Position numbers and translations under genes: made by a program
The notes under the pieces: model-generated
Databases searched by the model: none
Told to the model about the DNA's origin: nothing
Seen by the model: the letters and a program-made list of their open reading frames with translations, nothing else
In this document: piece after piece, positions 1 to 53,362 of the stretch
How the letters are laid out: each line of letters begins with the position of its first letter
Numbering within the stretch: position 1 is the first letter of the stretch
Source: a virus
Reading direction: 5' to 3' (one strand)
DNA: 53,362 nt
Virus record (IMG/VR): IMGVR_UViG_3300047160_009474
Coordinates: 1 to 53,362 of that record

Positions 1-97
1 CAACTCTCAACCATTGGCGCGATGAGAGCACCGCATGGCGAACCGGCCACCAAAGTAGGCAAGGTCCTGGGCACCACCGGCAGGCTCCTCTCCTGGA
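1..97. repeat. Terminal overlap copy 1, identical to 53266-53362 (circular or terminally redundant genome, unit 53,265 bp)
   Basis: Base-by-base comparison of both window ends gives an identical 97-mer caactctcaaccattggcgcgatgagagc...ggctcctctcctgga. Confidence 0.95.
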
Positions 98-1143
98 CCG
101 ACCGGACCACCCGCTTAGTGCTGGATGATGCCTTTAAACAACTCACCGCTGAGGGGCTGGTCCCCAATACCGAAACGGCTCGGCGCGAATACACCAACCA
201 GCTGGGCCAATACAATCGCCGGGCTCAGGGGCTCATTGTGAAAATCTTCCGCGACACCGGCTTTGGACCTTTTGTCACTGCCGGGCGCACCTTCCTAGCC
301 ATGGGCTGGCGCATGGGGACCCTCTCCCCGGGAGTGCCCGCCACCAGTCTCAAGGCTGCCGCCGCCCTCCGCGCCAATGTCGCCACCAAATGGATCGGGG
401 CTTTCGCCCTGTTGGCCGCTGCCAATTATCTCCTGACCAAGCACCTGAAAAACGGCGGGGTCATGGGCCGACCGGGCACTAAGTTTGGCAACATTGATAT
501 GGGCTACAACGACAAGTCCGGGAAGATGGTTCAGTTCCCCCTGATGGATGCGCTGGGGTTGGGCAAGAGCCTCCATGTTGAGGGAATTCGCGGAGCGGTT
601 GATGCCTACCGGCTGGGGCTGACCCCGGGGGACATGGTCGATGCCGCCGCTCGCGACATCATCAACTCTGACATCGCGCCCTTCGCCGGTCCTCCGGTGA
701 AATTCGGAGTCACCGCCATCTCCGGTTATCCTGCTGCAGTGAATGTGGGCCGGGTCTCGACCATCGTTCCGCCCGGTCAGAGCCAGTTCGCCGAAAACCT
801 GAGTGAAGCGATGAAGCAGGCCAACCCCATGGTCACCGGGGCTCGCAAGCTTTATGCGGGTAAATCGGCTGCGGAAGTCCTCTCCACCCAAATCCCCCGC
901 TACTCTCTTGCTGCGGGCAAGACCGAGGCCACTGCCCAAAACTATCTCAAGATTGTCACCCTGGCCCAGGCCGCACAATACACCGATGGCATCGTGCATG
1001 ACGCACGGCGGCTCCCACCTGAGGAACGCCTCAAATTTGTCTCTGACCAGATCAATCGAATGGCCCCGGACCTGCGGCCCCATGCCTGGAAAGAAATGCG
1101 CCGTCGACGGGTCTTTGCCCTGCCTCAATCAATGGAGAAATAA
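1..1143 (+). CDS. 3' part (last 380 codons) of the giant ~2,280-aa virion-associated protein ORF that starts at 47566 and crosses the junction
   Basis: The frame from base 1 (QLSTIGAMRAPHGE...) is the same peptide that ends the window. Stop TAA is at 1141-1143. Track ORF 22..1143 is only the internal-Met remnant. Confidence 0.85.
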   Translation, partial: QLSTIGAMRAPHGEPATKVGKVLGTTGRLLSWTDRTTRLVLDDAFKQLTAEGLVPNTETARREYTNQLGQYNRRAQGLIVKIFRDTGFGPFVTAGRTFLAMGWRMGTLSPGVPATSLKAAAALRANVATKWIGAFALLAAANYLLTKHLKNGGVMGRPGTKFGNIDMGYNDKSGKMVQFPLMDALGLGKSLHVEGIRGAVDAYRLGLTPGDMVDAAARDIINSDIAPFAGPPVKFGVTAISGYPAAVNVGRVSTIVPPGQSQFAENLSEAMKQANPMVTGARKLYAGKSAAEVLSTQIPRYSLAAGKTEATAQNYLKIVTLAQAAQYTDGIVHDARRLPPEERLKFVSDQINRMAPDLRPHAWKEMRRRRVFALPQSMEK

Positions 1144-1148
1144 AAACT

Positions 1149-1346
1149 ATGAACATCAACCTGCACAACGCACTGGCGATTGCCATCCTCACCGTCCTGT
1201 CCCTGGCCTTCTGCGGCCTGTGGCATGATCGGGTCAACGTCTGGCAGTCCCTGAAGAAGACCGACACCATTGTCTTTGCCGTCATCTTCATCATCCTCTT
1301 CATGCTGGGCCAGCACTGGAACATCCTGCTCTTCGAACCCAGCTAG
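1149..1346 (+). CDS. Small membrane protein with two hydrophobic helices (holin-like size and position; function unproven)
   Basis: ATG lies 6 nt after the giant-ORF stop, with GGAGA about 10 nt upstream. Hydrophobic stretches AIAILTVLSLAFCGLW and IVFAVIFIILFML. Confidence 0.6.
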   Translation: MNINLHNALAIAILTVLSLAFCGLWHDRVNVWQSLKKTDTIVFAVIFIILFMLGQHWNILLFEPS

Positions 1347-20213: not shown

Positions 20214-20334
20214 CCTTAGTGGGCCAGACCCCGTCATGCGCGTACTGCTGCAACGCTTCCGCCAATGGGGTCAGTGCGCCAATGGTCACGTAGCACAAAG
20301 CCTTCAGGACAACCACCAGGGTGTCGTGTTTCAT
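20083..20334 (-). CDS. Small membrane protein with two hydrophobic helices (83 aa), holin-like
   Basis: Its ATG overlaps the stop of the fibre gene (ATGA at 20331-20334). Hydrophobic stretches LVVVLKALCYVTIGAL and VTWVIAISGCAVGAATQLLAFL. Confidence 0.55.
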   Translation of the reverse strand: MKHDTLVVVLKALCYVTIGALTPLAEALQQYAHDGVWPTKVTWVIAISGCAVGAATQLLAFLSGSYTDYRAKLAQSSAAETSK

Positions 20335-29558: not shown

Positions 29559-29902
29559 TAGTATGGCCCCCACTGAACTGGACCCGGGGGCACAGGTTTT
29601 ACCGGCGGGGTTAGTTCCACAATCCATCCACACTTGGAGCAGAAGGCTCTTTGTATGGGCATCGATTGCAGCTGGGGATGTGTGTTGCCAGCTACCGGGT
29701 TCTGGCAGGGCGCATACATCTGCACGTAGTTATGTCCCGCAGCAAGGCAGGGGTGGGTTGCCGGTGAGGGTTTCGGCGGTGCCGGTCGAGGCGGGTCTTT
29801 CGGTGGTGGTGTCCTGACCGTCCTCTTGTCAACGGTCCTTTGGGTCCTGGAGCCAAATGACTCCCGTCTGTGTTTTTGTCTTCGTTTGGTTTTCTTTTTC
29901 AT
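29558..29902 (-). CDS. Basic/Pro-rich protein with a Cys cluster (114 aa)
   Basis: MKKKTKRRQKHRR... then PPPKDPPRPAPPKPSP and FCSKCGW. ATGA-coupled. Confidence 0.5.
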   Translation of the reverse strand: MKKKTKRRQKHRRESFGSRTQRTVDKRTVRTPPPKDPPRPAPPKPSPATHPCLAAGHNYVQMYAPCQNPVAGNTHPQLQSMPIQRAFCSKCGWIVELTPPVKPVPPGPVQWGPY

Positions 29903-30900
29903 AAATCGCTCACCAGTATCGTGAGGTCATCGTGCGGAATCTCGACCCACCCGCATTTCAAATCATTCACCCCCAGTGTGATGAGCCACTTGCCCTCCCG
30001 CAACAGTGCCCCGCAGGGGAACACCACCAGGGGTTTGCGCGGGAACCAGTAATCGTTCTGGCTCCCGATGAGCAAGGGCTCTGCCGTAACTTTTGTTACG
30101 TTGAACGGTGGCTCTGCTTTGAAGGCGTAGGCTCCCATAAAGTATCGCCGGTAGGGCGGCTTCCATTCCATCGAACTGTGAAAGAAGGTCCAGTATTCAT
30201 CACCTACCCGAACCGGCGGGGTGCCCCCGCGAATCACACCATGCGGCCAGGGGCATTCACTGGTGGTCTTGTAGACCTGGCTCTGGCGCATCTCCCCATC
30301 GAACTCGACAATCTCATGGTTGGGTGGACCGGCATAAAGCATGTGGGGTTTCTGGGAGTGGAACCACCAGAGCCAGTTCTTTTCATGCCCCCGGTTCTGT
30401 CCCAGCCCGCCGCCATTCTTGCCGTAGTCAGGATCATACCGGGATACGGCGACCCACTTGTCATCCACCGGCACCAGGATCTGGTGTCCACCGGTCCAGC
30501 GGTTGCGGTCACCAAACCAAACGAAGTTGCAGGCACCAATCCAGGTGCGCCCGCCAAAGACAACGGCGCGAGGATCCTCAAACTGCTCCTCGGGCTTGCT
30601 CGGCATCATTTGGACTTTCACCCCGCGCAGTGGAGTGATGCCATCAGGCTCTCCCAGGGCAAAGGCGTAAATGGCATTGCGGCCAAAGCGCAGCCGGTCT
30701 TCGAAGATGGAGCGTCGGACCAAGAGCCAAAGTCCATCGGGCCGCTCAACGATGCCGGGATTGAAGTAGTCAACGTGGTCCTTTTCGGCCAGACCAAAGG
30801 AGAAGATCCCGGCCTTCCACCCGGAGTGTGCGGCCTGCTCGGTGAGCTTGGGAACCAGGTCGTCCCGCTTGAGGTGATGTTTTTCCAGCTGGTCGTTCAT
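29899..30900 (-). CDS. Beta-propeller glycosidase/phosphorylase-like or glycosyltransferase-like protein (333 aa)
   Basis: Motifs FEDPRAV and GHEKNWLWW recall GH130/GH43-type propellers and EKNW-type mannosyl enzymes (from memory). ATGA-coupled within the cassette. Confidence 0.4.
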   Translation of the reverse strand: MNDQLEKHHLKRDDLVPKLTEQAAHSGWKAGIFSFGLAEKDHVDYFNPGIVERPDGLWLLVRRSIFEDRLRFGRNAIYAFALGEPDGITPLRGVKVQMMPSKPEEQFEDPRAVVFGGRTWIGACNFVWFGDRNRWTGGHQILVPVDDKWVAVSRYDPDYGKNGGGLGQNRGHEKNWLWWFHSQKPHMLYAGPPNHEIVEFDGEMRQSQVYKTTSECPWPHGVIRGGTPPVRVGDEYWTFFHSSMEWKPPYRRYFMGAYAFKAEPPFNVTKVTAEPLLIGSQNDYWFPRKPLVVFPCGALLREGKWLITLGVNDLKCGWVEIPHDDLTILVSDL

Positions 30901-31511
30901 CGCACCTTGAAAATCTTGTAGGTCGCGCCGTCCTTAACACAGTCGGCGTAATCGAGGATGAGGCCCTGAGCTTTTCGCGTGGTCTCCCAGTCGCAGTCGT
31001 CAAACAGGATGATTCCATCTTTTCGCACTTTGGGGACATAGTTTTGAACGTCGCGGCAGGAGGGCACCTCGGCGTGATTGCCGTCGATGTTGAGCATGTC
31101 AATATTTGTGAATAACTGGTGAACATATTGGGACTGAGCTCGAATCGGAATCACGTACTCATCCAGGCCCAATCGCCAGAAAGCTTCCATCGCCCCCTTG
31201 TGTACCCAGTCCAGGTCGATGGATTGCCACCAGCCCTTGTTGGCATCGTTCTCAGACTCCAGGCAATCGGAACGCTTCCACGGGTCGATGGTGTAAAGCT
31301 TCCCGCGCCCCAGCTCTTTAAGAGCCAGCCCCATCGCAATGGTCGAGCGTCCCCCGAAACACCCGATTTCTACGATGAGGCCAGGCTCAAAATTAATAAC
31401 CAGTTCCGCCATCTCCACGCCGCGCTCCGGGGTGGTCCAGCCCTGCAGACACCCTTCCCGGTCCAGAACCAGTTCCCGGCGCAGTTGCACAATGAGAGCT
31501 TCAGCAATCAT
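30897..31511 (-). CDS. Class I SAM-dependent methyltransferase (204 aa)
   Basis: LIVEIGCFGGRSTIAMGLAL (SAM-binding loop) then ...YTIDPW...LNIDGNH, an O-methyltransferase / Methyltransf_24-like layout. Confidence 0.6.
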   Translation of the reverse strand: MIAEALIVQLRRELVLDREGCLQGWTTPERGVEMAELVINFEPGLIVEIGCFGGRSTIAMGLALKELGRGKLYTIDPWKRSDCLESENDANKGWWQSIDLDWVHKGAMEAFWRLGLDEYVIPIRAQSQYVHQLFTNIDMLNIDGNHAEVPSCRDVQNYVPKVRKDGIILFDDCDWETTRKAQGLILDYADCVKDGATYKIFKVR

Positions 31512-37524: not shown

Positions 37525-38121
37525 TCAGGTGGTGCATTGCTTCCAGCACCTGGGCACGGCTGCGAATTGTTTGGCCATTTCCTCGTTCACATCGGGACAC
37601 TGGGTGTCCAACGGGAACCACACGGCCACTCGGGTCCAGCAGCCGCAGATGCCGCAGGCCCGCAGGTCATGGTCGTAAGGAGTGGATTTGCTGCCGGTGC
37701 CCGAAAGGACATTCACCAGTTCCGAGCACAGACCGGCGCAGGGTTTGGAAAAGAAGACTGCCTGGGGACAGCTCGCGCAGATTGCGGCCCGCTCGTTTGC
37801 GGTGGCCTGGGCCACTAACTGCGAGCCGGTGAGCTTGTGCCGGGCAAAGGTCATCGTGCCCCGCACGATTTCGCCCATGCTCCAATGGCTCTTGCGCCGG
37901 GTGCCGGGCGGAACATTCTCGCAGTCATCGGGGTAGTTGGCGCAGATGTCCCGCTCCACCTCCTGCTCGAAGTCCAATCCCACCGGGACACCGTTGGCCT
38001 TGCGCTCCTGGTAGGCGAAGTGCATCAACTGCTCGAAGGTGGTGCCCCTGACTTCCTGGCGGGTCAGCGGGTCACGCCAGAGAAAAGAACCGCCATAGGG
38101 GATTTGCGAGATGATCCTCAT
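37525..38121 (-). CDS. Cys-rich hypothetical protein between terminase and portal (198 aa)
   Basis: ATGA-coupled to terL. CASCPQ...CAGLC...CGICGC cluster. Confidence 0.55.
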   Translation of the reverse strand: MRIISQIPYGGSFLWRDPLTRQEVRGTTFEQLMHFAYQERKANGVPVGLDFEQEVERDICANYPDDCENVPPGTRRKSHWSMGEIVRGTMTFARHKLTGSQLVAQATANERAAICASCPQAVFFSKPCAGLCSELVNVLSGTGSKSTPYDHDLRACGICGCWTRVAVWFPLDTQCPDVNEEMAKQFAAVPRCWKQCTT

Positions 38122-39875
38122 GCCTCGATTTCCTCCGGGACATAGCCCACCTGGTCTGACTCCTCGTACACGCTGTTAACCTCCTGGGCGTAGTTGAAGA
38201 ATTCCTCACTGCGGGCGACCGTCTCGCCGATGGGTTGGATGCGGAAACCCCGCTGGCGGGCAACCTCGATGATCATCACAAAGCAGTCGGACAAGTCGGG
38301 CGACTCACCGAACTGCTCCTTGTAATCCCGCTTGTTCATCATCACGATCCGCTGCTTCGAATCGTCAAACTCGATGGTGCAAAGCTCTCGGGCCGTCAGC
38401 TGGTCCAACCCGCGCAACTGCTCATGGTTCATCGCATCGCGAGAGCGGAAGTACATCTCAGTGCGCTTATTCCAGTAAACCTCCTTTGCGGGTCGGATGT
38501 CCTCGGGCGAGCAGGAGTCTTCACTGGCCGCTCCCGCGAATTCGATGCGGATGATCTTCGGGCTCCAGATGCGTTGGACGATGTCGCACAGACCCCCGCC
38601 CTCGCCGGTGGCATCGATGCCCAGGTTTTGGGGTTCGCAGGAGTATTCGACTCCGTTGTATTGAAAGGATTCGCATTGGCGTTTTAACTGTTCCGCAAGT
38701 TGGAAGTGGACCGGGTTTTTCGATGAGGCGTCGATGGTGAGGATGACGGGCGGCATGCATTCGATGCCGGTGTTCCCGTTAGAGATTTCTCCCATTTTGG
38801 CAAATCGAAGAGCGGGCCGGTCGCCCCCGCCGAAAGCTGGGTCGAAAGCTCCAATAATTCGGAAATTTCTTCCGGTGAATACGTGGCGTTCGAAACCTTT
38901 TGCATTGATGATTCCTACTTCGCTAAAGACAGTTTTAGTGAGCCCGATGGGTGGCCAGAACCCCCGTTCGTTCGACCAATAGGAGGGGCTGTTCTCCCCG
39001 CCTGCCAGTGCCCGGCGGCTCTCCACCCGGCGCAGGGAAGGCAAGTGCCTGGAAACAGTTTTACCATTCAGAATGTTGGGCGACTTCTCGGCATCGAACC
39101 GCAGCACAATGCCGGTCCTGCCGTTCTGTTGGGGCTTGCTCTCCCACTCCTCGGTCTCGACGCTGACACTTGCCCACCCGTCCTTGGGCTCGCAGAACTT
39201 CCCCATCTCATCCAGCCGCGAGCGGGGGTTGCCGATGACCACCATTAGGAATTCTTCGCAGGCCGCAGACAGGTTGAACCCCGCTTCGAAGATGGCATGC
39301 GGCACGGCTGTTGCCTCATCTATGACAACCATCTGGCGGCGGGTGTGGTGGCCTTTGATGTTGTCGGCCACCTTGAAGACTGAGCCCTCGCGCACGGCGA
39401 TGCCGATGATGGCATGTTTATCGTCGCCCTTGTTGGACTGCCAGATCATGCGCGAATCCACAAAGTTGCCGTACTGCCGAGGACCCAAAGCCGAGAAGAG
39501 CCGCTGGATCTCCGACCAGCCCCGCCGCCTCAGAGCCTTGGCGGTGGTGGAGCAAAAGATGACGCTGGATTCCTCGGGGCAACAGAGCCACCAAATCCCC
39601 GCAAACCCAGCGACATTAAAGGTTTTTGCGCTCCCCGCGCAGCCCGCCAGGCCGACCCACTCATTGAAGCAGCAGGCATCGATGATGTTGTTAGTCCAAG
39701 GGTGATACTCGAAATGCTTGGGCAGGAGCAGATTGGCAACCGCCCGGAAAAGGTCAGGCCGTGGCGGCATTCCCCGCATCGGGCCATTGCGATGACTGAA
39801 CGCCCAGCGGTCGTAGGAGAGCTGATCCAGGCCAGGTTTTAAGCCATAGGTTCTGACCGTAGCCGTGGTAGGCAT
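38118..39875 (-). CDS. terL: Terminase large subunit (585 aa)
   Basis: Walker A-like GCAGSAKT, Walker B MVVIDEAT, then VIGNP and a C-terminal nuclease-sized half. First gene of the morphogenesis operon. Confidence 0.8.
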   Translation of the reverse strand: MPTTATVRTYGLKPGLDQLSYDRWAFSHRNGPMRGMPPRPDLFRAVANLLLPKHFEYHPWTNNIIDACCFNEWVGLAGCAGSAKTFNVAGFAGIWWLCCPEESSVIFCSTTAKALRRRGWSEIQRLFSALGPRQYGNFVDSRMIWQSNKGDDKHAIIGIAVREGSVFKVADNIKGHHTRRQMVVIDEATAVPHAIFEAGFNLSAACEEFLMVVIGNPRSRLDEMGKFCEPKDGWASVSVETEEWESKPQQNGRTGIVLRFDAEKSPNILNGKTVSRHLPSLRRVESRRALAGGENSPSYWSNERGFWPPIGLTKTVFSEVGIINAKGFERHVFTGRNFRIIGAFDPAFGGGDRPALRFAKMGEISNGNTGIECMPPVILTIDASSKNPVHFQLAEQLKRQCESFQYNGVEYSCEPQNLGIDATGEGGGLCDIVQRIWSPKIIRIEFAGAASEDSCSPEDIRPAKEVYWNKRTEMYFRSRDAMNHEQLRGLDQLTARELCTIEFDDSKQRIVMMNKRDYKEQFGESPDLSDCFVMIIEVARQRGFRIQPIGETVARSEEFFNYAQEVNSVYEESDQVGYVPEEIEA

Positions 39876-39945: not shown

Positions 39946-40197
39946 ATGACGACTTTGCCGTGCGATTGTAGCTTCACCTCCTGGAATCCATGTTCCTGCT
40001 CTAACTTTCCCAGCACCGCTCCTCTTCCGCCAGGTAGTGGCACCACTGAAGTTTTTGGCGGCACCGGCAGTCCGCTCACTGGCAACGCTGTTCCCGATCC
40101 CGGCGTCCCAACCGCTCCGGTGGCGATCTGGATTCAGAGTGATTCCTTCCCGCCATTCCAGACCACCGCTATTTGGATGGATGGGGCGTGGCACTAA
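39946..40197 (+). CDS. Possible small protein (83 aa) preceding the fibre gene
   Basis: ATG ORF ending 5 nt before the fibre ATG. Its C-terminus, VAIWIQSDSFPPFQTTAIWMDGAWH, looks protein-like, but the N-terminus is Cys/Ser/Pro-rich. Confidence 0.3.
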   Translation: MTTLPCDCSFTSWNPCSCSNFPSTAPLPPGSGTTEVFGGTGSPLTGNAVPDPGVPTAPVAIWIQSDSFPPFQTTAIWMDGAWH

Positions 40198-40202
40198 ACC
40201 TT

Positions 40203-41624
40203 ATGGCTTGCGACCCAGTCCAAATTCCCATCATCACTCAAGTGCCAGGACCGCAGGGACCCTCCGGTCCACCGGGGCCGCAAGGCCAGACCGGTCCAGC
40301 GGGACCACAAGGTCCGAAAGGCGACACTGGCTCACAAGGACCGCCGGGTACTTCGATCAGTTTCCCCACCACCACCCGTGGCGACCTGATGGTGGATAAC
40401 GGGAACAACACCCCCAATCCCAGCGTGGTGCGGCTGGGAACCGGCGGTGCGCCCAATGACGGTTTGCTTCTACTAGCCGACAGCAGTCAGCCCACCGGGT
40501 TGCATTGGTTGCCCCTTAGCACGGCTGAGACTGACAAGGGCATCCCGCGATTTAATGGCGTTAATGGGCTTCCGCCGTTGGAAAGTTCCAATGTTACTAT
40601 CACTGACAACGGGGCCATTCAAACGACCGGCGGCAATGTTCGTGGAACCGACTCAGTGGACTTGCAGGCCAACCGCAGTTCAGCTGCCCAGGTCGCCAGC
40701 GGCAATCAATCGACTATCGGTGGGGGAACCAATAATACCGCTTCGGGCCAGTTTTCCACCGTCGCCGGGGGTGGCACTAATCAGGCCACGCAGGCCCAGG
40801 CCACGGTCGGCGGCGGCTTCACCAATAACGCTACCGGCGCGGAAAGCACAGTGGCGGGTGGCAACACCAATACCGCCAGCGGCTCTGCGGCCACCGTGGG
40901 CGGCGGACAGGGTAATACCGCCAATGGTCCCAGTGCCACCATCGCTGGCGGTCTTAGTAATACCGTCAGTGGGGCTCGCTCAGTCGTTGGCGGCGGTCAG
41001 AGCAATAACGCCTCGGGCGGTAACGCTACGATTGCCGGTGGAGCTAATAATACCTGTTCCGCCACAAGCGATGGCACAGTGGGGGGTGGAGCTTTCAATA
41101 CTGTCAGTGCCTCTTTTGCTACCGTGTTTGGCGGATACGGGGCCAATGCTTACCTGATGGGGCAAGTCGCCTGGGCTGGTGGAGTCTTTGCGTCATATGG
41201 GGACGCGCAGGTCAGCATTCTTCAGGCGCGTTGCCTGACCAAGGACGGGACGACGGCGACCCCCATGACCCTGGATGGCGGGGCCTCTGACTCATTCGGC
41301 ATCTTTAACATGGTCATTCCCACCGATACCGCCTGGGCTTTCGATGGACAGATTGTTTGCCGTTCCAACGAAAGTCCGCCTAAAGGGGCCATGTGGACCT
41401 TCACGGGGATCATTCAAAACAATGCCGGGACGGTCTCTATGATCGGTTCAAATGTTGCCAACGGGGTGGAAAACTTCAGTCCGAATCTGGCCAACCCCGT
41501 CGTGACGGCGGATAACACCAATAAGGCTCTGAAGATTACGGTGGTGGGTCAGGGCTCGACCAATATCCGGTGGCTGGCTCGCACCATTTTAACAGAAGTG
41601 TTTGGGGCTGCGGGATTCTCTTAA
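40203..41624 (+). CDS. Tail fibre with a collagen-like G-X-Y tract and ~10 tandem 14-aa GGxNxAxG repeats (473 aa)
   Basis: [35 protein letters not shown] (about 40245-40349). Repeats such as [17 protein letters not shown] span about 40719-41140. The track start at 40173 is a TTG extension. Confidence 0.7.
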
Positions 41625-47565: not shown

Positions 47566-50500
47566 ATGAGCGAGTGGAAAGCAACATTAGACGATGGGCG
47601 CACCATTGTCCTGGAGGGTGATGAAAAGCCCACTGAGTCGCAGGTTCTCTCCGCGCTGAACGAATACAACGCTGGCCGCAAAGCCGAGCTCGCGGAGAAA
47701 CGCGCAGCCATTCAAGCTGAAGGAGAACGCTCCTACGTTTTCGGTGGTGACGAGGAAGGCAAGCCCACAGCCAAAACCCTGCCCCGCCGCTCAGGCCGGT
47801 TGCTCGATACGGGCGAGGAGGCCCCACCGGCACCGGTCGAAAAGATTGTCTCAGCCGCAGTCACTGAGGGTGGCGACATCCACACCGGTGCCAACCATCC
47901 AGAAATCCTGAACCGGTTGGGCATCAAAGGCTACGAGGACAGGGAGTCGCGCAACACCAACAAGTTTGGATTCACCACCAACACCGGGCGATTCGTTTCC
48001 CGGGAGGAAGCGGGCCGCATTGCCACTAACGCCGGTCAGAATCTCGACACCTTCGGGCCGGGTGAGTTAGTCCACAGCGACCAGATTGCCTCACCCAAAG
48101 ACCCGGACAAAGCACTGGGTGATGTGCCGCAGGAACCCGGGATTCGGCAAGCCAGTATGTATGAGCGGGCGCGGATGTCGCCATTGGCCCAGGCAGTCTT
48201 TGGAGAAACCGAAGCGGGCAAGCAGTTGCAGAAAGAATACGGCGGAGGCGGCACTCCTTCCCCCAGTGAAGTGCTGGGTGCTTCCAGCATGATCGCAGGG
48301 GTTGGTCCCGGTGGGTTGCTTGGCAAGGGGCTCATGATTTATTTCGCCGGGAATTATCTCTGGCATTCACCCGGGCAGATGAAAGCCGCTCTCAAAGCCT
48401 ACAACGCAGGCGACTACCAGACCGCCAGAAACATCATCATTGAGCAAGCACTGGGCGGTGGTCTCACAGCGGTTGGGCTCCATGGCGCATTTCAAAAGGG
48501 AGCACCCGACCTGGGTCCAGCTAAAGAAGTTCCACTGGAATATCAGGGCACCTTTAAAGAGCGCAAGCCAGGTGAAGCCCCCGAGGCTCCCATCGACGTT
48601 CAGGCCGAGGTAGTCAAACCCAAACAGTTGTCCTTCGTGGACCCTCGCACTGGTGTGGTCTATGACTCCAGTGGCAAGGTCAGTTCCATCTCCAGCCCGG
48701 GGGGACTCACCCTGGCTGCGACCGGCGATGAGATTGCCAGGAACGGTGCCCCTGCGACTGCAGCGGCACTCAATGAACAAGTAGCGAAAGGAGAAGCACA
48801 TGCCATTCAAGAGCGAAGCGCAGCGGCGGTACCTGTGGAAGCACCACCCGCAGCTGGCCCGGAAGTGGGCGCACGAACACCCGGGACAAAAGAACCTGCC
48901 GTACCACAAACGGAAAAAGAAACGGTAACCGAGCCCACACGGGAACAACTGCAACAGGCAGCCCGCGAGAGTGCCGCTGAGTATGAGGAGGAGCATGCCG
49001 AGGACATAGCGGACGAGGAGGAGGAAACACCCGCACCGGCGGCAGAGCCGACTACAGTTTTCCTCTCTGGCACCGAGCGCAACAAGGCAGACCGACAATC
49101 GCGGATGGAGCAGGGTTTGCCGATGGGCGTGACTGCCACTGGACCGGGTAGCAAGGGTGGAGAACGGACACTTTCACCAGCCGTGCGACAGGATGTAGTC
49201 AAACATTTGAATGCGGGTGGCGAGGTGTTCATGGATTCCGGTGCTTATGCCGCAACCAAACCAGACGAACCAGAGAAGCAGCGTGAAGTGAACTGGGGGA
49301 CTGTGCTGCATGCCTATAATGAAATCGCGGATCAGGCTAGCCGCCCGGTCCATTCAACTCTTTACGTGGTTGCGCCAGACAAGCTGCGCGATCCAACCAC
49401 CACACAAGAACTGTGGAATAAGTACCACACGCAACTTGGGGACTTGATCGGCAAGGGAGTGAACGTAATTGCGCCCGTTCAGAAAGCACCAGGGAAAACC
49501 TTAGCGGAGTCCATGAAGGAAGTGCCCACCTCGTTTCGAGGCCAGCAATACCGGGATAAAATTCCAGGCGATGTGATTGTCGGCATCCCGATGAAGCAGT
49601 GGACGATGCAAGACCTGACCGACATGCTGGCTGCGAGCAAGGGCAAAACGCTCAGTGTGCATTTGCTGGGTGGCGGGGAGGAAATGGTTAACTGGTTCAA
49701 GGATATCGCCAAAGAGCAGGGTGTAAACCTGCGCCATGTGTCCGGTGATGCTTCGGTCACCAAAGATATTCGCGAGCGCAAATTCGGTCCACCAGAGAAG
49801 GCCGCAGAACCACCTCCAGCCGAGGCACCCGAAAGGCCAAACCTGTCGAAGTGGGGGGTCCCTCAGGCGCAATGGGATGAGATGGCGAAATATAATGACT
49901 TCGACCAGATGAAAATCTGGGGCACCACCCGCGCCAAAATTATTGAGAAAGTTTCACTGGAGCAATTCGGGAAAAAGAAAGAGGAGGAAGCAGTAGCCAA
50001 ACCGGCCAAGGCGTTGCCGACCCAGATGAAGGCGAGCGATGCCCCACCACCCAAACCGGGCGAGCCAGACCTGGTGATGATCGGTTGCGGTGTCGACAAG
50101 GTTAAGACCAAGACACCGGTGCCGATCGCGGACCTGTACACCGGCAGGCTCACTAAAGCCCGGGTGAATTGGGCCAAAGGCCAGGACCGTCCATGGATGA
50201 TCCTTTCGGCAATGCATGCAGCCATTGAACCGGGCCAACCGGTAATGCCATACAATGTAAGCATTGACCAGTTGACCCCTGAAGAACTGCCGGGTTGGCG
50301 GCAACGGGTTAGGCAGAAAATCCTTGATTACTTCGGCGGCAGTCGCGAGGGCACCATTGGCAAGACCATCGAGATCCATGCTGGAAAGAAGTACGTAGCG
50401 GAGTTCAATAAAGCGGTGGAGGGACTGGGGGTCACGGTCAAACCTGCGTTCACTGGCGGCGAAGGTTCCGCCAAACAGGAGGTCGCCTACAAAAAGGGAT

Positions 50501-53362
50501 ACCAACGACCGGCAGCCGAGGCTCCAGCAGCTGCACCCGCGCCGGTGGAGAAACCGGCGGCACCGGCAAAGCCACAGCCCTTAGCCGAGTTCTCCACCAA
50601 GCAGGACTTCAATAAGGACTTCGACCCGGGCCAGTTGACCGGCGAGTACCAATACGTTGCCGACTTCCACAATTCCCAGAACGACGCGCAGGCCAGGAAG
50701 GCACTGAGCAAAGCCACAGTCGATCAGTTGAAGCAACTGGCTGAGTGGCACGGCATCGCCGTAGGCGGCAACGCAAAGCAGCTGACCGACCGGCTGGTGG
50801 AGTTGAAGGGCCTGGCTCGCAAACTCAAGACCACCCCGGAGTCAGAGCTCGCCAAGCTAACCAACTATGAGCTCAACGAGATGCTTAAAAAGACCGGCGG
50901 CTATCGGGGTCTGCCCAAAGACACCAAGGTCAGGCAACTCAAAGCCTTCCCGGAAAAGTTCGAAGGCACTCTCAGGGTTGAAGCTGCGGAGCAAATCCAG
51001 CATGACCAGTTCGCGGCAGCCATCAAAGCTCGCAAACCGGTGGGTAGAAAGGCCGCAGAGTCCTGGGACATTGAGTCTCAGCTGGAGCAACTGGGTTACC
51101 AGTGGAACGAGAAGACCCAGCAACTTGAGTTCGTCGGTCCCCCAGACATCGTCCGGGTCGGTGAGAGGCGCATGCCCGAGGAAACCCTCAGGCGCAAGGT
51201 TGCCGAGATGGAGCGATTACTGGAAGGGCATGAGAAGGGAACAGCTGAACTTGAAAAGCAGATCGCAAAGTATGCGGAGGAAAGCCGACCGGAAAATCCC
51301 GACGTTGAGCGGCGTGAATTTGCCCAGAAACATTTGGGGACTGCTAAGGGGATGCTGCCAGAACGCAGGGCGCAGATAGAGAAGGAGCAACGCGAGTTGG
51401 CCCAGATGAAGGAAGCCCTGAAGGGACCCAAGCAAAAGGCTCGTCCTGGTGTTCAGCATCTGCGGAGAGCTGAGAAGCCAGAAAGAGGCAGTGGTCGGTT
51501 CATCGATGAGAACAGTAATGAGTACGTCCTCGAAAACGATTCCGGTCAGAGGCTGGATAGTCTCAGCGTCACTCGCTATGGGCAGGATAAAACCAAACCT
51601 ATACTTCGGCTGCCCAAGACATTGCAGAAGAACCCGGACGCAGCACAGTCCAAGTTCTGGCGGGATAACCTGGCGAACGTAGCCAAAGCCGAGGGTGGCA
51701 AACTCTACTCCGGTGACCCGGTCAGGAGCCTGAGCAAAGCCGACAAGGCAGTGTGGGAGAAATTGAACACCGGCACTGAGAAGCTCGGTGATGCCGAGTA
51801 TTATGTTTTCGAACCCGAACCCCAAACCAAAGAGGGCAAATCAAAACGAATAGCTAATCTCATCGAGCAACGATTTGGAGAGAAGGCCCAACTCGAAAAA
51901 CAAACCGCTGCGGCCAGTGAAGGCAAACCCATTCCTCCCGGGCATGAGGGTCCTGGTGGTGCCTCTGTCGGTGATGTTCCCAATACCCCGCCCCAGGCCC
52001 GAGCCGCAGGCGCACGGGTCGAGCAGGCCCCACCGGCGGAAAGACCCCTGGGTCCGGTGTCAACGGTTGCCAATGCGCTCAAGAATGTCGGCAACTGGAT
52101 TGTCGCGGAAGCCAAGGGGATGGCGGGAGCCACCATGCCTCACACCACTGCCGCGCACCGGGAAACCGGAGAAGCCGGGGCACGTTACCTTTCTTCCCGC
52201 ATCGCCGCTCTACCCAACGCCCATGCCTTCTCCACCCAGGTATTGGAAGGCACCAACGTCGACCCGCACAAATTCGGTGCCGCTCTGACCGAAGACAACC
52301 TGCGCTCCATCCGGGAAGCCTTGCGAGCCAAAGCCACTGAGCTGCTGGCCATCGGGGATGATGAAGGTGCCGACGAAGCCAGCGCACAAGCCGATGAAGT
52401 CCGCACCATGATCGGTGCCCGGGGTTCGCCCTTCCGCACCGAGGATGAATACTTCGATTTCCTGGCTGACCCCCAAACCCAACGGGCCATCGACCAGCAC
52501 ATCCAGTTGTGGCAGGAAGTCATTGACCCGCAGTACAAGCAGGCCATGGACCTGGACCCCTCCACCCAGCTGCCCACCCGGGGTCAGCAAACCGGGGCTC
52601 GCGTTAATCTAAAACCCATCTTTGGCGATGAGGAATTGCCGGTGGGTAAAACCGTCAAGGGGGCCGATGGTCCCCGGCTCACCGCCACTTTCAAACGCAA
52701 GTCGCCCTTCGCCCGCAAGGCCAAAGGCACCGGCGAATCCTATGCCATCAACTATCACGAAATCATTGCCAACACCTTTGAGAAGCAACTGGAGGTGGCC
52801 AATAAAAACGCCTTCGATAAATCCCTGGTGGATTCGGGCAATGCCCTCATTGGCGACCCGGGCCAGCGCATCACCCTCGGCGGGGAAGCCACGGTCGCAT
52901 TCCCGCTCACCCGCAAGACCATCGTTACCTCCAGTGAGGGAGTCACCAAGGCCTTCCCCCTTTCCAAAAACATCTACGTTCGCAAAAGCCTGGCCGGTGA
53001 GTACGCCTCTGCGGCCAACGTCGACCGCAAGTTCAGAGTCCCCATTGTCACCCCGATAATGAATGCGCTCAATAAAGTGGCTCTGGCTGGGCTGACCGAT
53101 GCCACGGCTCACATCTCCAACCAGATGTCGTTACTCTTTAATCGCCCCATCTCCGGTCCCCTGTGGGCTGACTCACTGCTCTCTGCCGCCGGTCGGCTCG
53201 ATGTCCCGGTGGCCATTGGCCGGGCTCTAGTCAAAGCCTTCCAGAACAACACCCAGCAAATTGCCCAACTCTCAACCATTGGCGCGATGAGAGCACCGCA
53301 TGGCGAACCGGCCACCAAAGTAGGCAAGGTCCTGGGCACCACCGGCAGGCTCCTCTCCTGGA
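47566..53362 (+). CDS. 5' part of the giant ~2,280-aa multidomain virion-associated protein (continues at 1..1143)
   Basis: The frame of ATG 47566 has no stop to the window end, and no frame-1 ORF is closed in the track. It joins the 1..1143 frame through the 97-bp overlap. Total length is 6,843 nt. Confidence 0.85.
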   Translation, partial: MSEWKATLDDGRTIVLEGDEKPTESQVLSALNEYNAGRKAELAEKRAAIQAEGERSYVFGGDEEGKPTAKTLPRRSGRLLDTGEEAPPAPVEKIVSAAVTEGGDIHTGANHPEILNRLGIKGYEDRESRNTNKFGFTTNTGRFVSREEAGRIATNAGQNLDTFGPGELVHSDQIASPKDPDKALGDVPQEPGIRQASMYERARMSPLAQAVFGETEAGKQLQKEYGGGGTPSPSEVLGASSMIAGVGPGGLLGKGLMIYFAGNYLWHSPGQMKAALKAYNAGDYQTARNIIIEQALGGGLTAVGLHGAFQKGAPDLGPAKEVPLEYQGTFKERKPGEAPEAPIDVQAEVVKPKQLSFVDPRTGVVYDSSGKVSSISSPGGLTLAATGDEIARNGAPATAAALNEQVAKGEAHAIQERSAAAVPVEAPPAAGPEVGARTPGTKEPAVPQTEKETVTEPTREQLQQAARESAAEYEEEHAEDIADEEEETPAPAAEPTTVFLSGTERNKADRQSRMEQGLPMGVTATGPGSKGGERTLSPAVRQDVVKHLNAGGEVFMDSGAYAATKPDEPEKQREVNWGTVLHAYNEIADQASRPVHSTLYVVAPDKLRDPTTTQELWNKYHTQLGDLIGKGVNVIAPVQKAPGKTLAESMKEVPTSFRGQQYRDKIPGDVIVGIPMKQWTMQDLTDMLAASKGKTLSVHLLGGGEEMVNWFKDIAKEQGVNLRHVSGDASVTKDIRERKFGPPEKAAEPPPAEAPERPNLSKWGVPQAQWDEMAKYNDFDQMKIWGTTRAKIIEKVSLEQFGKKKEEEAVAKPAKALPTQMKASDAPPPKPGEPDLVMIGCGVDKVKTKTPVPIADLYTGRLTKARVNWAKGQDRPWMILSAMHAAIEPGQPVMPYNVSIDQLTPEELPGWRQRVRQKILDYFGGSREGTIGKTIEIHAGKKYVAEFNKAVEGLGVTVKPAFTGGEGSAKQEVAYKKGYQRPAAEAPAAAPAPVEKPAAPAKPQPLAEFSTKQDFNKDFDPGQLTGEYQYVADFHNSQNDAQARKALSKATVDQLKQLAEWHGIAVGGNAKQLTDRLVELKGLARKLKTTPESELAKLTNYELNEMLKKTGGYRGLPKDTKVRQLKAFPEKFEGTLRVEAAEQIQHDQFAAAIKARKPVGRKAAESWDIESQLEQLGYQWNEKTQQLEFVGPPDIVRVGERRMPEETLRRKVAEMERLLEGHEKGTAELEKQIAKYAEESRPENPDVERREFAQKHLGTAKGMLPERRAQIEKEQRELAQMKEALKGPKQKARPGVQHLRRAEKPERGSGRFIDENSNEYVLENDSGQRLDSLSVTRYGQDKTKPILRLPKTLQKNPDAAQSKFWRDNLANVAKAEGGKLYSGDPVRSLSKADKAVWEKLNTGTEKLGDAEYYVFEPEPQTKEGKSKRIANLIEQRFGEKAQLEKQTAAASEGKPIPPGHEGPGGASVGDVPNTPPQARAAGARVEQAPPAERPLGPVSTVANALKNVGNWIVAEAKGMAGATMPHTTAAHRETGEAGARYLSSRIAALPNAHAFSTQVLEGTNVDPHKFGAALTEDNLRSIREALRAKATELLAIGDDEGADEASAQADEVRTMIGARGSPFRTEDEYFDFLADPQTQRAIDQHIQLWQEVIDPQYKQAMDLDPSTQLPTRGQQTGARVNLKPIFGDEELPVGKTVKGADGPRLTATFKRKSPFARKAKGTGESYAINYHEIIANTFEKQLEVANKNAFDKSLVDSGNALIGDPGQRITLGGEATVAFPLTRKTIVTSSEGVTKAFPLSKNIYVRKSLAGEYASAANVDRKFRVPIVTPIMNALNKVALAGLTDATAHISNQMSLLFNRPISGPLWADSLLSAAGRLDVPVAIGRALVKAFQNNTQQIAQLSTIGAMRAPHGEPATKVGKVLGTTGRLLSW
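48800..48928 (+). CDS. Embedded alternative-frame small ORF (42 aa) with a strong Shine-Dalgarno sequence
   Basis: AAAGGAGAAgcacATG. MPFKSEAQRRYLWKHHPQLARKWAHEHPGQKNLPYHKRKKKR. It lies in the +1 frame over an Ala/Pro/Glu-rich linker of the giant ORF. Confidence 0.35.
   Translation: MPFKSEAQRRYLWKHHPQLARKWAHEHPGQKNLPYHKRKKKR
53266..53362. repeat. Terminal overlap copy 2, identical to 1-97
   Basis: See 1-97. Confidence 0.95.

What the first reader, a model, noticed from the sequence alone, without database searches (positions are those of the whole stretch)
47566..53362. A 2,280-aa mosaic virion protein spanning the genome junction, with enzyme-like inserts
This single ORF of 6,843 nt makes up about 13% of the genome. 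It follows two smaller putative internal proteins, a T7 gp14-16-like layout.

Modules along it that do not look structural:
- About 49060-49790: a segment with GGEVFMDSGAY ... YVVAPD ... VIAPVQ ... VGIPMK ... VHLLGGG ... SGDAS. This recalls TIM-barrel transglycosylases of the TGT/DpdA type (D-S-G and L-G-x-G strings).
- About 50070-50410: MIGCGVDKV...ADLYTGRL...PWMILSAMHAAI...MPYNVSI. This resembles the DUF6884 pattern as I remember it.
- About 50713-50940: two SAP-like helix-extended-helix motifs (QLKQLAEWHGIAVGGNAKQLTDRLVEL).

Gly- and hydrophobic-rich stretches and long charged linkers separate the modules. An injected protein carrying nucleic-acid-modifying or DNA-binding modules would be an attractive early anti-defence or takeover factor.

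I saw no DxDGD or T7-type polymerase motifs.
Basis: partly seen in the sequence, partly recalled or inferred. Interest (0 to 1): 0.65.

Follow-up and report, generated by a model that had tools for sequence, protein, structure and literature searches.

The report
Giant phage protein carrying DpdA-like enzymes
A soil phage encodes a 2,280-residue multi-domain ("polyvalent") protein whose middle section holds relatives of two enzymes that bacteria use to put 7-deazaguanine into DNA, which suggests a DNA-modifying anti-restriction tool built into a structural-module protein.

Summary
The ORF is real. The contig ends overlap by 97 nt, and 47566..53362 joined to 98..1143 reads as one 6,843-nt, 2,280-aa frame. 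Homologues align across the join without a break.

The protein has a conserved scaffold: module A (aa 83-193) and C-terminal module D (aa 1461-2273). Related phages carry both in a 1,283-aa "short" orthologue at the syntenic position. Here about 1,270 aa of cargo sit between A and D.

- **Cargo 1 (aa 495-745):** a confident (β/α)8 TIM barrel from an unannotated family of 159 relatives. About 39 of these lie in giant polyvalent proteins. Profile-profile comparison links the family specifically to phage DpdA DNA-guanine transglycosylases (97.7%, E 2e-12; controls ≤0.4%). The three catalytic Asp positions are invariant, but the Zn/Ins8 subdomain is missing.
- **Cargo 2 (aa 837-962):** Pfam DUF6884, which I link to YaaA/DUF328, the DpdC family (88.9%).
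- **Fusions:** the two domains are also fused in five small proteins, in both orders.
- **SAP:** the call is sub-threshold.

Virion packaging and a T7-like layout are untested. My reading is a new cargo variant of the known polyvalent-protein class.

The parts
47566..53362 (+). Giant ORF, first part (aa 1-1932 plus one base). It runs off the contig end.
   Evidence: Translation has no stop. The frame continues at window 98.
98..1143 (+). Giant ORF, second part (rest of aa 1933 to aa 2280, then TAA at 1141-1143). Window 1-97 duplicates 53266-53362.
   Evidence: 97-nt terminal overlap and a 6,843-nt joined frame. Homologues align across the join.
47812..48144 (+). Module A (aa 83-193). A conserved ~100-aa domain of unknown fold with motifs G.NHPEIL, ESRNT.FGF.T, F..R.EA, GQNL and VHSD. 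It is shared by nine other 1.3-2.5-kaa proteins.
   Evidence: BLAST identity of 43-66% to P0001, 2, 5, 6, 7, 8, 10, 11 and 12. Alignment A6 has 23 invariant columns. phrog_839, unknown function, E 1.5e-7. No relative in PDB or in the phage collection.
48238..48525 (+). Gly- and hydrophobic-rich stretch (aa ~225-320). No homologue found.
   Evidence: Read from the sequence. jackhmmer found no relatives among the collected proteins.
49048..49800 (+). Module B (aa 495-745). A DpdA-like (β/α)8 TIM barrel. Predicted active-site residues are D557 (DSGAY), Y561, D605 (APD), Q639, H699-G702 (HLLGGG) and D728.
   Evidence: AF2 model with pLDDT 87 and pTM 0.84, eight β/α units. 159 relatives. D, D, H, G and D are invariant across 41 sequences. 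hhalign against the DpdA/TGT set gives 97.7%, E 2e-12. Controls ≤0.4%.
50074..50451 (+). Module C (aa 837-962). DUF6884, related to YaaA/DpdC. Motifs are C841xxxK845, DLYTG and LSA(881-882).
   Evidence: Pfam PF21818, E 3.4e-17. AF2 pLDDT 84.7. hhalign against the YaaA family gives 88.9%, E 2.4e-6, controls ≤0.4%.
50704..50946 (+). Possible tandem SAP/HEH-like DNA-binding motifs (aa 1047-1127).
   Evidence: Pfam SAP at E 0.081, below the gathering score. The pattern is only visible by eye.
51148..51945 (+). Charged, probably coiled-coil stretch (aa ~1195-1300) followed by an unassigned segment (aa ~1300-1460). This is the end of the cargo region.
   Evidence: Read from the sequence. No family or homologue hits.
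51946..53362 (+). Module D, first part (aa 1461-1932). The conserved C-terminal scaffold.
   Evidence: 51-53% identity to the C-termini of P0001, P0002 and P0003. Alignment A5.
98..1119 (+). Module D, second part (to aa 2273). It contains the only TM-like segment (aa 2027-2045, weak).

Best explanation
The ORF encodes a polyvalent protein in the sense of Iyer et al. 2017, in a temperate soil phage. It has a lineage-conserved scaffold (module A plus the ~810-aa C-terminal module D), encoded among the phage's structural and packaging genes. About 1,270 aa of exchangeable cargo have been inserted into this scaffold.

The cargo is a DNA-directed enzyme pair. One part is a minimal DpdA-like TIM barrel that keeps the acid/base Asp, the stacking aromatic, the base-recognising Asp and Gln, and the nucleophile Asp of TGT/DpdA. 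The other is a DUF6884 domain related to YaaA/DpdC. Possible SAP/HEH DNA-binding motifs follow.

By analogy with the bacterial Dpd system, the most likely chemistry is base exchange or excision at guanines in DNA by module B. A host-made 7-deazaguanine such as preQ0 would be inserted, and module C would then bind or process the flipped or modified nucleotide. In the Dpd system DpdA inserts preQ0 and DpdC converts it to 7-amido-7-deazaguanine. The biological role would be protection of phage DNA from restriction. That is the same job proposed for the DNA methylase-helicase dyads found in other proteins that carry module B or module D.

Shown here: the ORF, the domain boundaries, the folds, the homology links, the conserved catalytic positions, and the recurrence of the B+C fusion.

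Inferred: the catalytic activity, the substrate base, the target DNA, and virion packaging or injection.
For: - **ORF and join:**
- **Scaffold and cargo architecture:**
  - The related phage contig L001 has a 1,283-aa orthologue (P0002) in which module A (aa 365-471) is followed directly by module D (aa 490-1282).
  - It sits at the syntenic position, after homologues of the window's 349-, 240- and 388-aa genes.
  - P0003 carries an Sbno-like helicase upstream of the same module D.
- **Module B:**
  - AF2 TIM barrel, pLDDT 87.
  - The invariant D63, D111, H205, G208 and D234 and the near-invariant Q145 all lie at the C-terminal ends of successive β-strands.
  - hhalign against 9 phage DpdA plus E. 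coli TGT gives 97.7%, E 2e-12 over 152 columns, aligning DSGAF, LD.IGD/APD..GD, FH.GE/PVQ.G, HGFG/HLLG.G and DSS/D.
  - Reversed and shuffled controls give ≤0.2%.
  - Against single sequences: 9g 94.9, Nicole72 93.7, CAjan 93.0 and Rosebush 89.7, against KdsA 0.2 and Nfo 0.4.
  - A plain DpdA/TGT HMM hits five stand-alone family members at E 3e-6 to 1e-4 in a small database.
  - The roles of the DpdA residues come from PMC10164549.
- **Module C:**
  - Pfam DUF6884.
  - hhalign against the YaaA family gives 88.9%.
  - Pfam's curators also relate DUF6884 to YaaA and predict base flipping (PMC11701544).
  - DpdC is a DUF328/PF03883 protein (PMC12839542) that converts preQ0-DNA to ADG-DNA (PMC10164549).
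- **Functional coupling:** B and C are fused in five other proteins of 475-889 aa, in both orders.
- **Polyvalent context:**
  - 5 of 13 giant proteins with module B carry an Sbno-like helicase plus LPD38, and several carry DNA methylases.
  - P0004, which has DUF6884, carries Kinase-PolyVal.
  - The best BFVD structural match is an ART-PolyVal protein.
- **Genomic context of stand-alone B genes:** they lie beside C5 DNA methylases, Mom, terminase, an LPD1 polyvalent protein and a Mu-type portal.
Against: - Foldseek does not single out TGT. The top PDB hits are generic TIM barrels (KDO8PS, aldolases) at TM 0.37-0.47, and a phage TGT ranks only 43rd in BFVD.
- Pfam's TGT model, NCBIfam and a PDB profile search do not reach module B.
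- Module B lacks the Zn-binding Ins8 subdomain, which makes up 30% of bacterial DpdA.
- No DpdB/ParB-like ATPase and no preQ0 synthesis genes were found in the window.
- For module C, Foldseek's best hit is a SMUG1 uracil-DNA glycosylase (E 0.016). YaaA is not in the top 50.
- Only 6 of 177 proteins with module B carry DUF6884.
- Modules A and D match nothing of known function, so virion association is unproven.
- No processing peptidase was detected in this protein.
Confidence: 0.6

Rival explanations
1. The cargo is a DNA glycosylase or lesion-making weapon rather than a base-exchange enzyme. Module B would excise a base, either guanine or a host modified base. Water would resolve the covalent Asp intermediate and leave abasic sites. 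DUF6884 would bind the abasic or flipped site. The target would be host DNA or host defence-marked DNA, and the purpose host takeover or removal of an epigenetic mark.
For: - The phage has no preQ0 pathway and no DpdB.
- The Zn/Ins8 subdomain is missing.
- The DUF6884 model's best PDB match is a uracil-DNA glycosylase fold (SMUG1).
- The DUF6884 member YfjM was recovered as a binder of abasic and RNA-base lesions (PMC11701544).
Against: - The residues that TGT and DpdA use to recognise the incoming or outgoing guanine-like base (Asp and Gln/His) are conserved.
- The pairing with a DpdC-like domain mirrors a modification pathway.
- Neighbouring genes of the stand-alone forms are DNA-modification genes such as methylases and Mom.
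Confidence: 0.2
2. The protein is essentially structural, for example a tape-measure, internal-core or ejection protein, and the inserted domains are non-catalytic relics or spacers.
For: - Modules A and D dominate conservation within the lineage, and the short orthologues lack cargo altogether.
- The gene lies among structural and packaging genes.
- Gly- and hydrophobic-rich stretches and long linkers are present.
Against: - The catalytic-type residues of module B are invariant across 41 diverse sequences, including stand-alone enzyme-sized proteins.
- DUF6884 keeps CxxxK and LSA.
- Both domains fold confidently on their own.
- Relics would not keep these positions.
Confidence: 0.08
3. Module B is a TIM-barrel enzyme unrelated in function to DpdA, for example one acting on a sugar or phospho-sugar or on the cell envelope. 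The DpdA resemblance would then reflect only shared barrel ancestry.
For: - Foldseek ranks KDO8PS, aldolases and xylose-isomerase-like barrels first.
- There is no Pfam TGT hit.
- The phage also encodes GH130 and GT2 sugar enzymes.
Against: - hhalign is specific for DpdA and negative for KdsA and Nfo.
- The motif order and spacing match DpdA.
- It is fused to a DNA-binding family and co-occurs with DNA methylases and helicases.
Confidence: 0.1

Closest known systems
Polyvalent proteins of phages and conjugative elements (Iyer, Burroughs, Anand, de Souza, Aravind 2017, PMC5512222)
   Same: - A very large single polypeptide joins unrelated enzymatic and DNA-binding domains through low-complexity linkers.
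- The gene lies near packaging and structural genes.
- Proteins that share its modules carry hallmark polyvalent domains: LPD38, Kinase-PolyVal, ART-PolyVal, and the Sbno-helicase/DNA-methylase dyad.
- Rho-N/SAP HEH domains are listed among rare polyvalent DNA-binding domains.
   Different: - This protein itself contains none of the Pfam polyvalent-specific families and no zincin-like processing peptidase.
- Its two enzyme-like domains, DpdA-like and DUF6884, do not appear in the 2017 paper's text: 'TGT' and 'YaaA' each occur zero times.
DpdA DNA-guanine transglycosylases (bacterial bDpdA, PDB 7UI4; phage DpdA1/DpdA2, e.g. phage 9g gp03, CAjan gp35)
   Same: - TIM barrel.
- The VF.DSGAF motif holds the acid/base Asp and the stacking aromatic.
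- It has a second Asp, a Gln/His, an H..G.G strand and a final nucleophile-position Asp in the same order.
   Different: - It lacks the C-terminal Ins8/Zn subdomain.
- Identity is only ~17% in the profile alignment.
- Pfam's TGT model does not recognise it.
- It is embedded in a 2,280-aa protein.
- The genome has no preQ0 synthesis genes and no DpdB.
- It is not detectably similar to DpdA3 of phage phiST (0.3%).
DpdC / YaaA (DUF328, PF03883), the enzyme that converts preQ0-DNA to ADG-DNA in the Dpd system
   Same: - The DUF6884 module aligns with the YaaA family over 106 columns (88.9%). The shared motifs are .YTG, LS(A/G)..G...P.....PY and A(G/S)..Y.
- It is paired with a DpdA-like domain, as DpdC is paired with DpdA.
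   Different: - It is a different Pfam family (PF21818), about half the size of YaaA.
- It has its own CxxxK motif.
- Foldseek does not recover YaaA.
- No nitrile-hydratase-type activity has been shown for any DUF6884 protein.
Phage P1 DarB and the methylase-helicase dyads of polyvalent proteins
   Same: - The proposed logic is the same: a large protein encoded with the virion genes that carries DNA-modifying enzymes to protect phage DNA from restriction (my own knowledge for DarB; PMC5512222 for the dyads).
- Proteins with module B or module D carry such dyads: P0009 with Eco57I-type methylase plus helicase, and P0003 with an Sbno helicase.
   Different: This protein has no methyltransferase and no helicase domain. 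The chemistry would be base exchange, not methylation.
T7 gp14/gp15/gp16 internal core proteins
   Same: The only shared feature is a large protein encoded in the late region after smaller ORFs.
   Different: - There is no sequence, profile or domain similarity and no lytic transglycosylase domain.
- The upstream ORFs have no matches.
- The phage is temperate, with an integrase.

Membership tests
Polyvalent proteins (Iyer et al. 2017) | Two or more domains of disparate biochemical activity in one large polypeptide of a phage or mobile element | tested here: met
   A DpdA-like TIM barrel, DUF6884, two unknown conserved modules and linkers in 2,280 aa. The phage context includes TerL, an integrase and a tail fibre.
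Polyvalent proteins (Iyer et al. 2017) | Shares domains with the established polyvalent-protein network (LPD, *-PolyVal, methylase-helicase dyad) | tested here: met
   Met indirectly. Module B recurs in giants with LPD38, an Sbno helicase and DNA methylases and in an ART-PolyVal protein. DUF6884 recurs in a Kinase-PolyVal protein. This protein itself has no such Pfam hit.
Polyvalent proteins (Iyer et al. 2017) | Delivered into the host with the DNA (virion-packaged or injected) | not testable with these tools
   The only support is its position among late, structural and packaging genes and its synteny with L001.
TGT/DpdA superfamily | (β/α)8 TIM-barrel fold | tested here: met
   AF2 model with pLDDT 87 and pTM 0.84, eight alternating β/α units. 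Foldseek hits are all TIM barrels.
TGT/DpdA superfamily | Three invariant active-site Asp (acid/base in DSG, base-recognising Asp, nucleophile Asp), plus the stacking aromatic and Gln/His | tested here: met
   D557, D605 and D728 are invariant in 41 sequences. Y/F561 is 80% F. Q639 is 91% conserved. All are aligned to the DpdA columns by hhalign. The roles come from PMC10164549.
TGT/DpdA superfamily | Statistically supported sequence homology | tested here: met
   hhalign 97.7%, E 2e-12. Controls ≤0.4%. Pfam's TGT HMM, NCBIfam and a PDB hmmsearch were negative.
TGT/DpdA superfamily | Structural Zn site and C-terminal insertion (Ins8 in bDpdA) | tested here: not met
   The domain ends about 20 residues after D728 in a P/A/E-rich linker, and there is no Cys/His cluster.
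TGT/DpdA superfamily | Closest structural neighbours are TGTs | tested here: not met
   There is no TGT among the top 50 PDB hits. A phage TGT ranks 43rd in BFVD (E 0.02, TM 0.24).
TGT/DpdA superfamily | Guanine/7-deazaguanine exchange activity on nucleic acid | not testable with these tools
   This needs a biochemical assay.
Phage 7-deazaguanine DNA-modification systems | DpdA accompanied by preQ0-pathway genes (FolE, QueD, QueE, QueC) in the phage | tested here: not met
   A Pfam scan of 50 window ORFs found only GP88, Methyltransf_24, GH130, DUF3799, GT2 and B-block_TFIIIC. PHROG hits include none of these genes. Contexts of stand-alone homologues also lack them.
DUF6884 (PF21818) | Pfam model above the gathering score | tested here: met
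   63.3 bits against a cut-off of 30, E 3.4e-17, aa 837-962.
DUF6884 (PF21818) | CxxxK and LSAxxG motifs (PMC11701544) | tested here: met
   C841-G-V-D-K845 is present. L880-S-A-M-H-A885 keeps LSA but has Ala in place of the final Gly.
YaaA/DpdC (DUF328, PF03883) | Homology to the YaaA family | tested here: inconclusive
   hhalign 88.9%, E 2.4e-6, controls ≤0.4%. A PDB hmmsearch hits 5CAJ only at E 1.4. Foldseek does not return 5CAJ. There is no Pfam PF03883 hit.
SAP/HEH domain (PF02037) | Pfam model at the gathering score | tested here: not met
   13 bits against a cut-off of 23.9, E 0.081, aa 1047-1079. The motif pattern is plausible by eye only.
T7-type internal core proteins (gp14-gp16) | Sequence or profile similarity, or a lytic transglycosylase domain | tested here: not met
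   No Pfam or PHROG hit of that kind in the giant ORF or in the two upstream ORFs.

The most novel reading that the evidence does not exclude
A phage protein, probably virion-borne, carries a self-contained, minimal Dpd-like DNA-modification unit: a DpdA-like transglycosylase without the Zn/Ins8 subdomain, fused to a DpdC-like DUF6884 domain. There is no DpdB ATPase and no phage-encoded preQ0 pathway. The unit would use the host's own 7-deazaguanine pool to modify DNA, either the incoming genome in cis at entry or progeny DNA before packaging. This would define a sixth DpdA subfamily, spread as exchangeable cargo through polyvalent proteins of phages and conjugative elements.
Probability: 0.22. 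Interest if true: 0.8.

Novelty: new variant of a known kind. Interest (0 to 1): 0.62.

Why it matters
Polyvalent proteins are thought to be the first molecules a mobile element deploys against host defences, but most of their cargo domains have never been characterised. This locus does three things.

- **It identifies a new family.** Module B belongs to an unannotated family of at least 159 sequence clusters, with no Pfam or NCBIfam model. The family is a remote but specific relative of the DpdA DNA transglycosylases, and it recurs in giant polyvalent proteins and as stand-alone genes beside DNA methylases and Mom.
- **It links DUF6884 to a pathway.** DUF6884 is tied to that family by repeated gene fusion and, through YaaA/DUF328, to DpdC. 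That gives an uncharacterised Pfam family a concrete, testable hypothesis.
- **It suggests a wider distribution.** 7-Deazaguanine-type DNA modification, or a related base-exchange or excision chemistry, may be much more widespread in mobile elements than the current DpdA1-4/bDpdA census shows. It may also occur in elements with no Que genes of their own.

The minimal barrel, about 250 aa with no Zn domain and no DpdB, would also be attractive as a compact DNA base-exchange enzyme if it proves active.

Tried and rejected
- **Word-indexed search with module B alone.** It returned nothing, although the exhaustive HMMER search later found 159 relatives. The first result was a sensitivity failure, not absence.
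- **PDB sequence and profile searches.** Searches for modules N-terminal, A, B, C and D gave only chance-level hits. The FabG hit to module D (E 4.5e-4, aa 129-231 of the profile) falls in an Ala-rich helical stretch, and I treat it as spurious.
- **Foldseek for module B.** It confirms a TIM barrel but does not discriminate TGT. I therefore do not claim structural proof of TGT membership and rely on profile-profile comparison with controls.
- **Foldseek for module C.** It gave only weak hits, the best being the SMUG1 UDG fold at E 0.016. I note this as a lead only.
- **tblastn against 50,697 deposited phage genomes.** No match for modules A, B or D, or for the 752-aa portal-position protein.
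- **DpdA3 of phage phiST.** Not significantly similar (0.3%). A weak DUF6610 (DpdA4 family) hit appears in only one stand-alone member (E 0.0027, below threshold).
- **T7-like internal-core reading.** Rejected for lack of any similarity.
- **Tape-measure reading.** Considered but not favoured. No tail-chaperone or tube genes were recognised, and in the relative L001 the gene is followed by a 205-aa gene and then a homologue of the window's 752-aa (portal-position) gene, not by baseplate genes. It is not excluded.
- **Separate DUF6884 or YaaA genes beside stand-alone module-B genes.** None found in seven contexts.
Full report
**1. The observation**

The window is a circularly permuted assembly. 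Its first 97 nt are identical to its last 97 nt, which leaves 53,265 unique bases at 56% G+C. The frame that starts at 47566 has no stop up to the window end. It continues from window 98 to a TAA at 1141-1143.

The join is confirmed independently. Three database proteins (P0001, P0002, P0003) align to aa 1461-2273 in single uninterrupted HSPs that cross the junction.

**2. The genome around it**

The window matches soil metagenome runs. It encodes:
- an integrase at 8988-10199(-);
- a RecE-type exonuclease at 14338-15483(+);
- a DNA methyltransferase;
- a large terminase at 38118-39875(-);
- a collagen-repeat tail fibre at 40173-41624(+).

Most other genes match nothing. The giant gene is the last of a + strand block: fibre, then 776, 258, 349, 240 and 388 aa, then the giant.

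A related contig, L001, keeps homologues of the 258-, 349-, 240- and 388-aa genes in the same order. They are followed by a 1,283-aa orthologue of the giant gene and then by homologues of the window's 198-, 752- and 433-aa genes. No deposited phage genome has a detectable relative of modules A, B or D, or of the 752-aa protein.

**3. Architecture**

BLAST and jackhmmer against the collected homologues divide the protein into modules.

- **Module A (aa 83-193):** shared at 43-66% identity with nine proteins of 1.3-2.5 kaa. It has 23 invariant positions and hits only phrog_839, of unknown function.
- **Module D (aa 1461-2273):** 51-53% identical to the C-termini of P0001, P0002 and P0003.
- **Cargo (between aa 193 and 1461):** in P0002, module A (365-471) abuts module D (490-1282), so this stretch in the window protein is inserted cargo. 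P0003 has a Strawberry-notch-type helicase N-terminal to its module D.
- **Linkers:** P/A/E-rich linkers at 423-461, 800-835 and 968-1017 bracket the two cargo domains.
- **Transmembrane segments:** only one weak TM-like segment exists, at 2027-2045.

**4. Module B (aa 495-745)**

Pfam, NCBIfam and PDB sequence searches are silent. An exhaustive HMMER scan of 1.84 billion representatives finds 159 relatives. 39 of the collected members exceed 1,500 aa and 80 are under 500 aa. Ten stand-alone members have no significant Pfam family. One has a sub-threshold hit to DUF6610, the family now called DpdA4.

In a 41-sequence alignment, D63, G65, P110, D111, H205, G208 and D234 are invariant. These correspond to protein residues D557, G559, P604, D605, H699, G702 and D728. 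S64, Q145, P181 and L206-207 are nearly invariant.

AlphaFold2 gives a confident eight-fold β/α barrel (pLDDT 87, pTM 0.84). Each conserved residue lies at or just after the C-terminal end of a successive β-strand, which is the canonical catalytic face.

Foldseek returns only generic TIM barrels from the PDB, at TM 0.37-0.47. In the viral library, the same domain inside an 'ART-PolyVal' protein comes first (E 3.7e-11). A 259-aa phiST protein of the same length as DpdA3 ranks 8th, and an annotated phage TGT ranks 43rd.

I tested the idea directly. I collected nine phage DpdA proteins (9g, CAjan, PSASB_03, RHEph06, VpKK5, Typha, Dp-1, Rosebush, Nicole72) and E. coli TGT, then compared profiles.

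| Comparison with the module-B profile | hhalign probability |
|---|---|
| 9 phage DpdA + E. coli TGT profile | 97.7% (E 2e-12, 152 columns) |
| Reversed or column-shuffled DpdA profiles | ≤0.2% |
| Phage 9g DpdA alone | 94.9% |
| Nicole72 DpdA alone | 93.7% |
| CAjan DpdA alone | 93.0% |
| Rosebush DpdA alone | 89.7% |
| E. coli TGT alone | 2.3% |
| E. coli KdsA alone | 0.2% |
| E. coli endonuclease IV (Nfo) alone | 0.4% |
| phiST DpdA3 alone | 0.3% |

The alignment pairs VF.DSGAF with VFLDSGAF, APD..GD with LD.IGD, PVQ.G with FH.GE, HLLG.G with HGFG, and the final D with DSS.

In Salmonella DpdA the corresponding residues are:
- Asp95, the acid/base;
- Phe99, the stacking residue;
- Asp130 and His181, which recognise the base (His181 is Gln in TGT);
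- Asp256, the nucleophile.

Mutating Asp95 or Asp256 abolishes exchange (PMC10164549). Module B keeps all of these positions. It lacks the Zn-binding Ins8 subdomain, because the domain ends about 20 residues after D728.

My conclusion is that module B is a minimal, divergent member of the DpdA/TGT superfamily. It is closest to the phage DpdA proteins in my comparison set (9g, Nicole72, CAjan, Rosebush), which I did not assign to subfamilies.

**5. Module C (aa 837-962)**

This is Pfam DUF6884, above threshold (E 3.4e-17). It has C841xxxK845 and LSA881-882, the two motifs Pfam's curators highlight. They describe the family as distantly related to YaaA (PF03883) and predict base flipping (PMC11701544).

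My own test compared seven DUF6884 segments with nine YaaA-family sequences. It gave 88.9%, E 2.4e-6 over 106 columns, with controls ≤0.4%. The AF2 model is confident (pLDDT 84.7). Foldseek gives only weak hits, led by the SMUG1 uracil-DNA glycosylase, and does not return YaaA. I rate the YaaA link as probable, not proven.

The link matters because DpdC, the enzyme that converts preQ0-DNA to ADG-DNA independently of DpdA and DpdB, is a DUF328/PF03883 protein (PMC12839542; PMC10164549). The two cargo domains therefore resemble the DpdA-DpdC pair.

Modules B and C are also fused in five other, much smaller proteins: P0105, P0156 and P0042 in the order B-C, and P0139 and P0187 in the order C-B. 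One of these lies just upstream of a Mu-type portal and prohead protease. Fusion in both orders in two-domain proteins argues for a functional couple rather than chance co-occurrence in a mosaic.

**6. Other segments**

The SAP call is sub-threshold (E 0.081). The pattern L..LK.LA...G.....G.K..L..RL is plausible, and HEH domains are known rare components of polyvalent proteins. The charged segment at aa 1195-1300 and the segment at aa 1300-1460 have no relatives.

**7. Class assignment**

Thirteen giant proteins with module B were scanned against Pfam. Five carry AAA_34, Helicase_C_4 and ResIII (an Sbno-like helicase) plus LPD38. Several carry DNA methyltransferase domains and one carries a metallopeptidase. 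P0009 combines module B with an Eco57I-type methylase and a helicase, and P0004 combines DUF6884 with Kinase-PolyVal. These are the signature architectures of the polyvalent proteins of Iyer et al. 2017 (PMC5512222). That paper's text never mentions TGT or YaaA.

Stand-alone module-B genes lie next to:
- C5 DNA methylases, a Mom homologue, terminase and an LPD1 polyvalent protein (L029);
- a DNA methylase and an SNF2 giant (L031);
- an N6 methylase (L028);
- a conjugative-type element (L005).

None of these contexts has Que genes or a separate DUF6884 or YaaA gene.

**8. Mechanism and confidence**

*Shown:* the ORF, the module boundaries, the two folds, the homology links, the conserved catalytic positions, the recurrent fusion, and the polyvalent-protein context.

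*Inferred:*
- Module B performs glycosidic-bond chemistry on a guanine-like base in DNA.
- Module C binds or processes the flipped or modified nucleotide.
- The base donor is host preQ0 or a relative, since the phage has no pathway of its own.
- The purpose is anti-restriction.
- The protein travels in the virion.

I put about 0.85 on 'polyvalent protein with DpdA-like and DUF6884 cargo', about 0.5 on virion delivery, and about 0.3 on 7-deazaguanine insertion specifically. That gives 0.6 for the combined best explanation as worded. The main rival is a glycosylase or lesion-making role (0.2).

**9. Novelty**

The class is known. The cargo is not. I found no paper in the searchable library that links polyvalent proteins with DpdA/TGT or DUF6884. 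The one co-mention is in an unrelated BREX study. Module B has no model in either Pfam or NCBIfam. This is a new variant of a known kind, with a testable biochemical hypothesis for two uncharacterised families.

Noticed in passing
window 1-97 and 53266-53362: An exact 97-nt direct repeat at the two contig ends. It shows a circular or terminally redundant assembly, and the giant gene is split by the arbitrary linearisation point.
   Followed up: yes
window 20331-24725 (-): A second very large ORF (1,464 aa) with no Pfam or PHROG match at all. Its function is unknown, and it has no tblastn match in the 17-kb part of the relative L001.
   Followed up: partly
window 8988-10199 (-) and 14338-15483 (+): A tyrosine-integrase PHROG hit (E 3e-20) and a RecE/exonuclease VIII-like protein (E 6.5e-33). 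The phage is therefore probably temperate.
   Followed up: partly
window 29899-31511 (-): A GH130 (β-1,4-mannooligosaccharide phosphorylase-like) gene next to a Methyltransf_24/DNA-methyltransferase-like gene. Both are conserved in the relative L001. The window scan also found a GT2 glycosyltransferase. These may be sugar or DNA modification functions. I did not examine them.
   Followed up: no
window 1149-1346 (+): A 65-aa ORF immediately after the giant gene has two hydrophobic stretches (MNINLHNALAIAILTVLSLAFCGLW... and ...IVFAVIFIILFMLGQHW). It could be a holin-like or other small membrane protein.
   Followed up: no
L029 8910-9710 and 12735-15317: In a 70-kb phage contig, a stand-alone module-B gene lies two genes upstream of a Mom (PF25680) homologue and two genes downstream of a C5 DNA methylase. 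Terminase and an LPD1 polyvalent protein follow. This looks like a DNA-modification island.
   Followed up: partly
L012 1-434 and L014 1-547 (mycobacteriophages Typha and Rosebush): In these annotated phages a ParB-like gene lies immediately (Rosebush) or one small ORF (Typha) upstream of DpdA. This recalls the bacterial DpdB (ParB-like ATPase)-DpdA pairing. No ParB-like domain was found in the window.
   Followed up: no
L003 1214-1669: A Macro-domain gene lies close to the DUF6884/module-B fusion protein P0187 in a Mu-like phage contig.
   Followed up: no
The word-indexed protein search returned no hit for module B alone. It did not even return P0009, which the same tool had found with the full-length query. 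The exhaustive HMMER search then found 159 relatives. Negative results from the indexed search should not be read as absence.
   Followed up: yes
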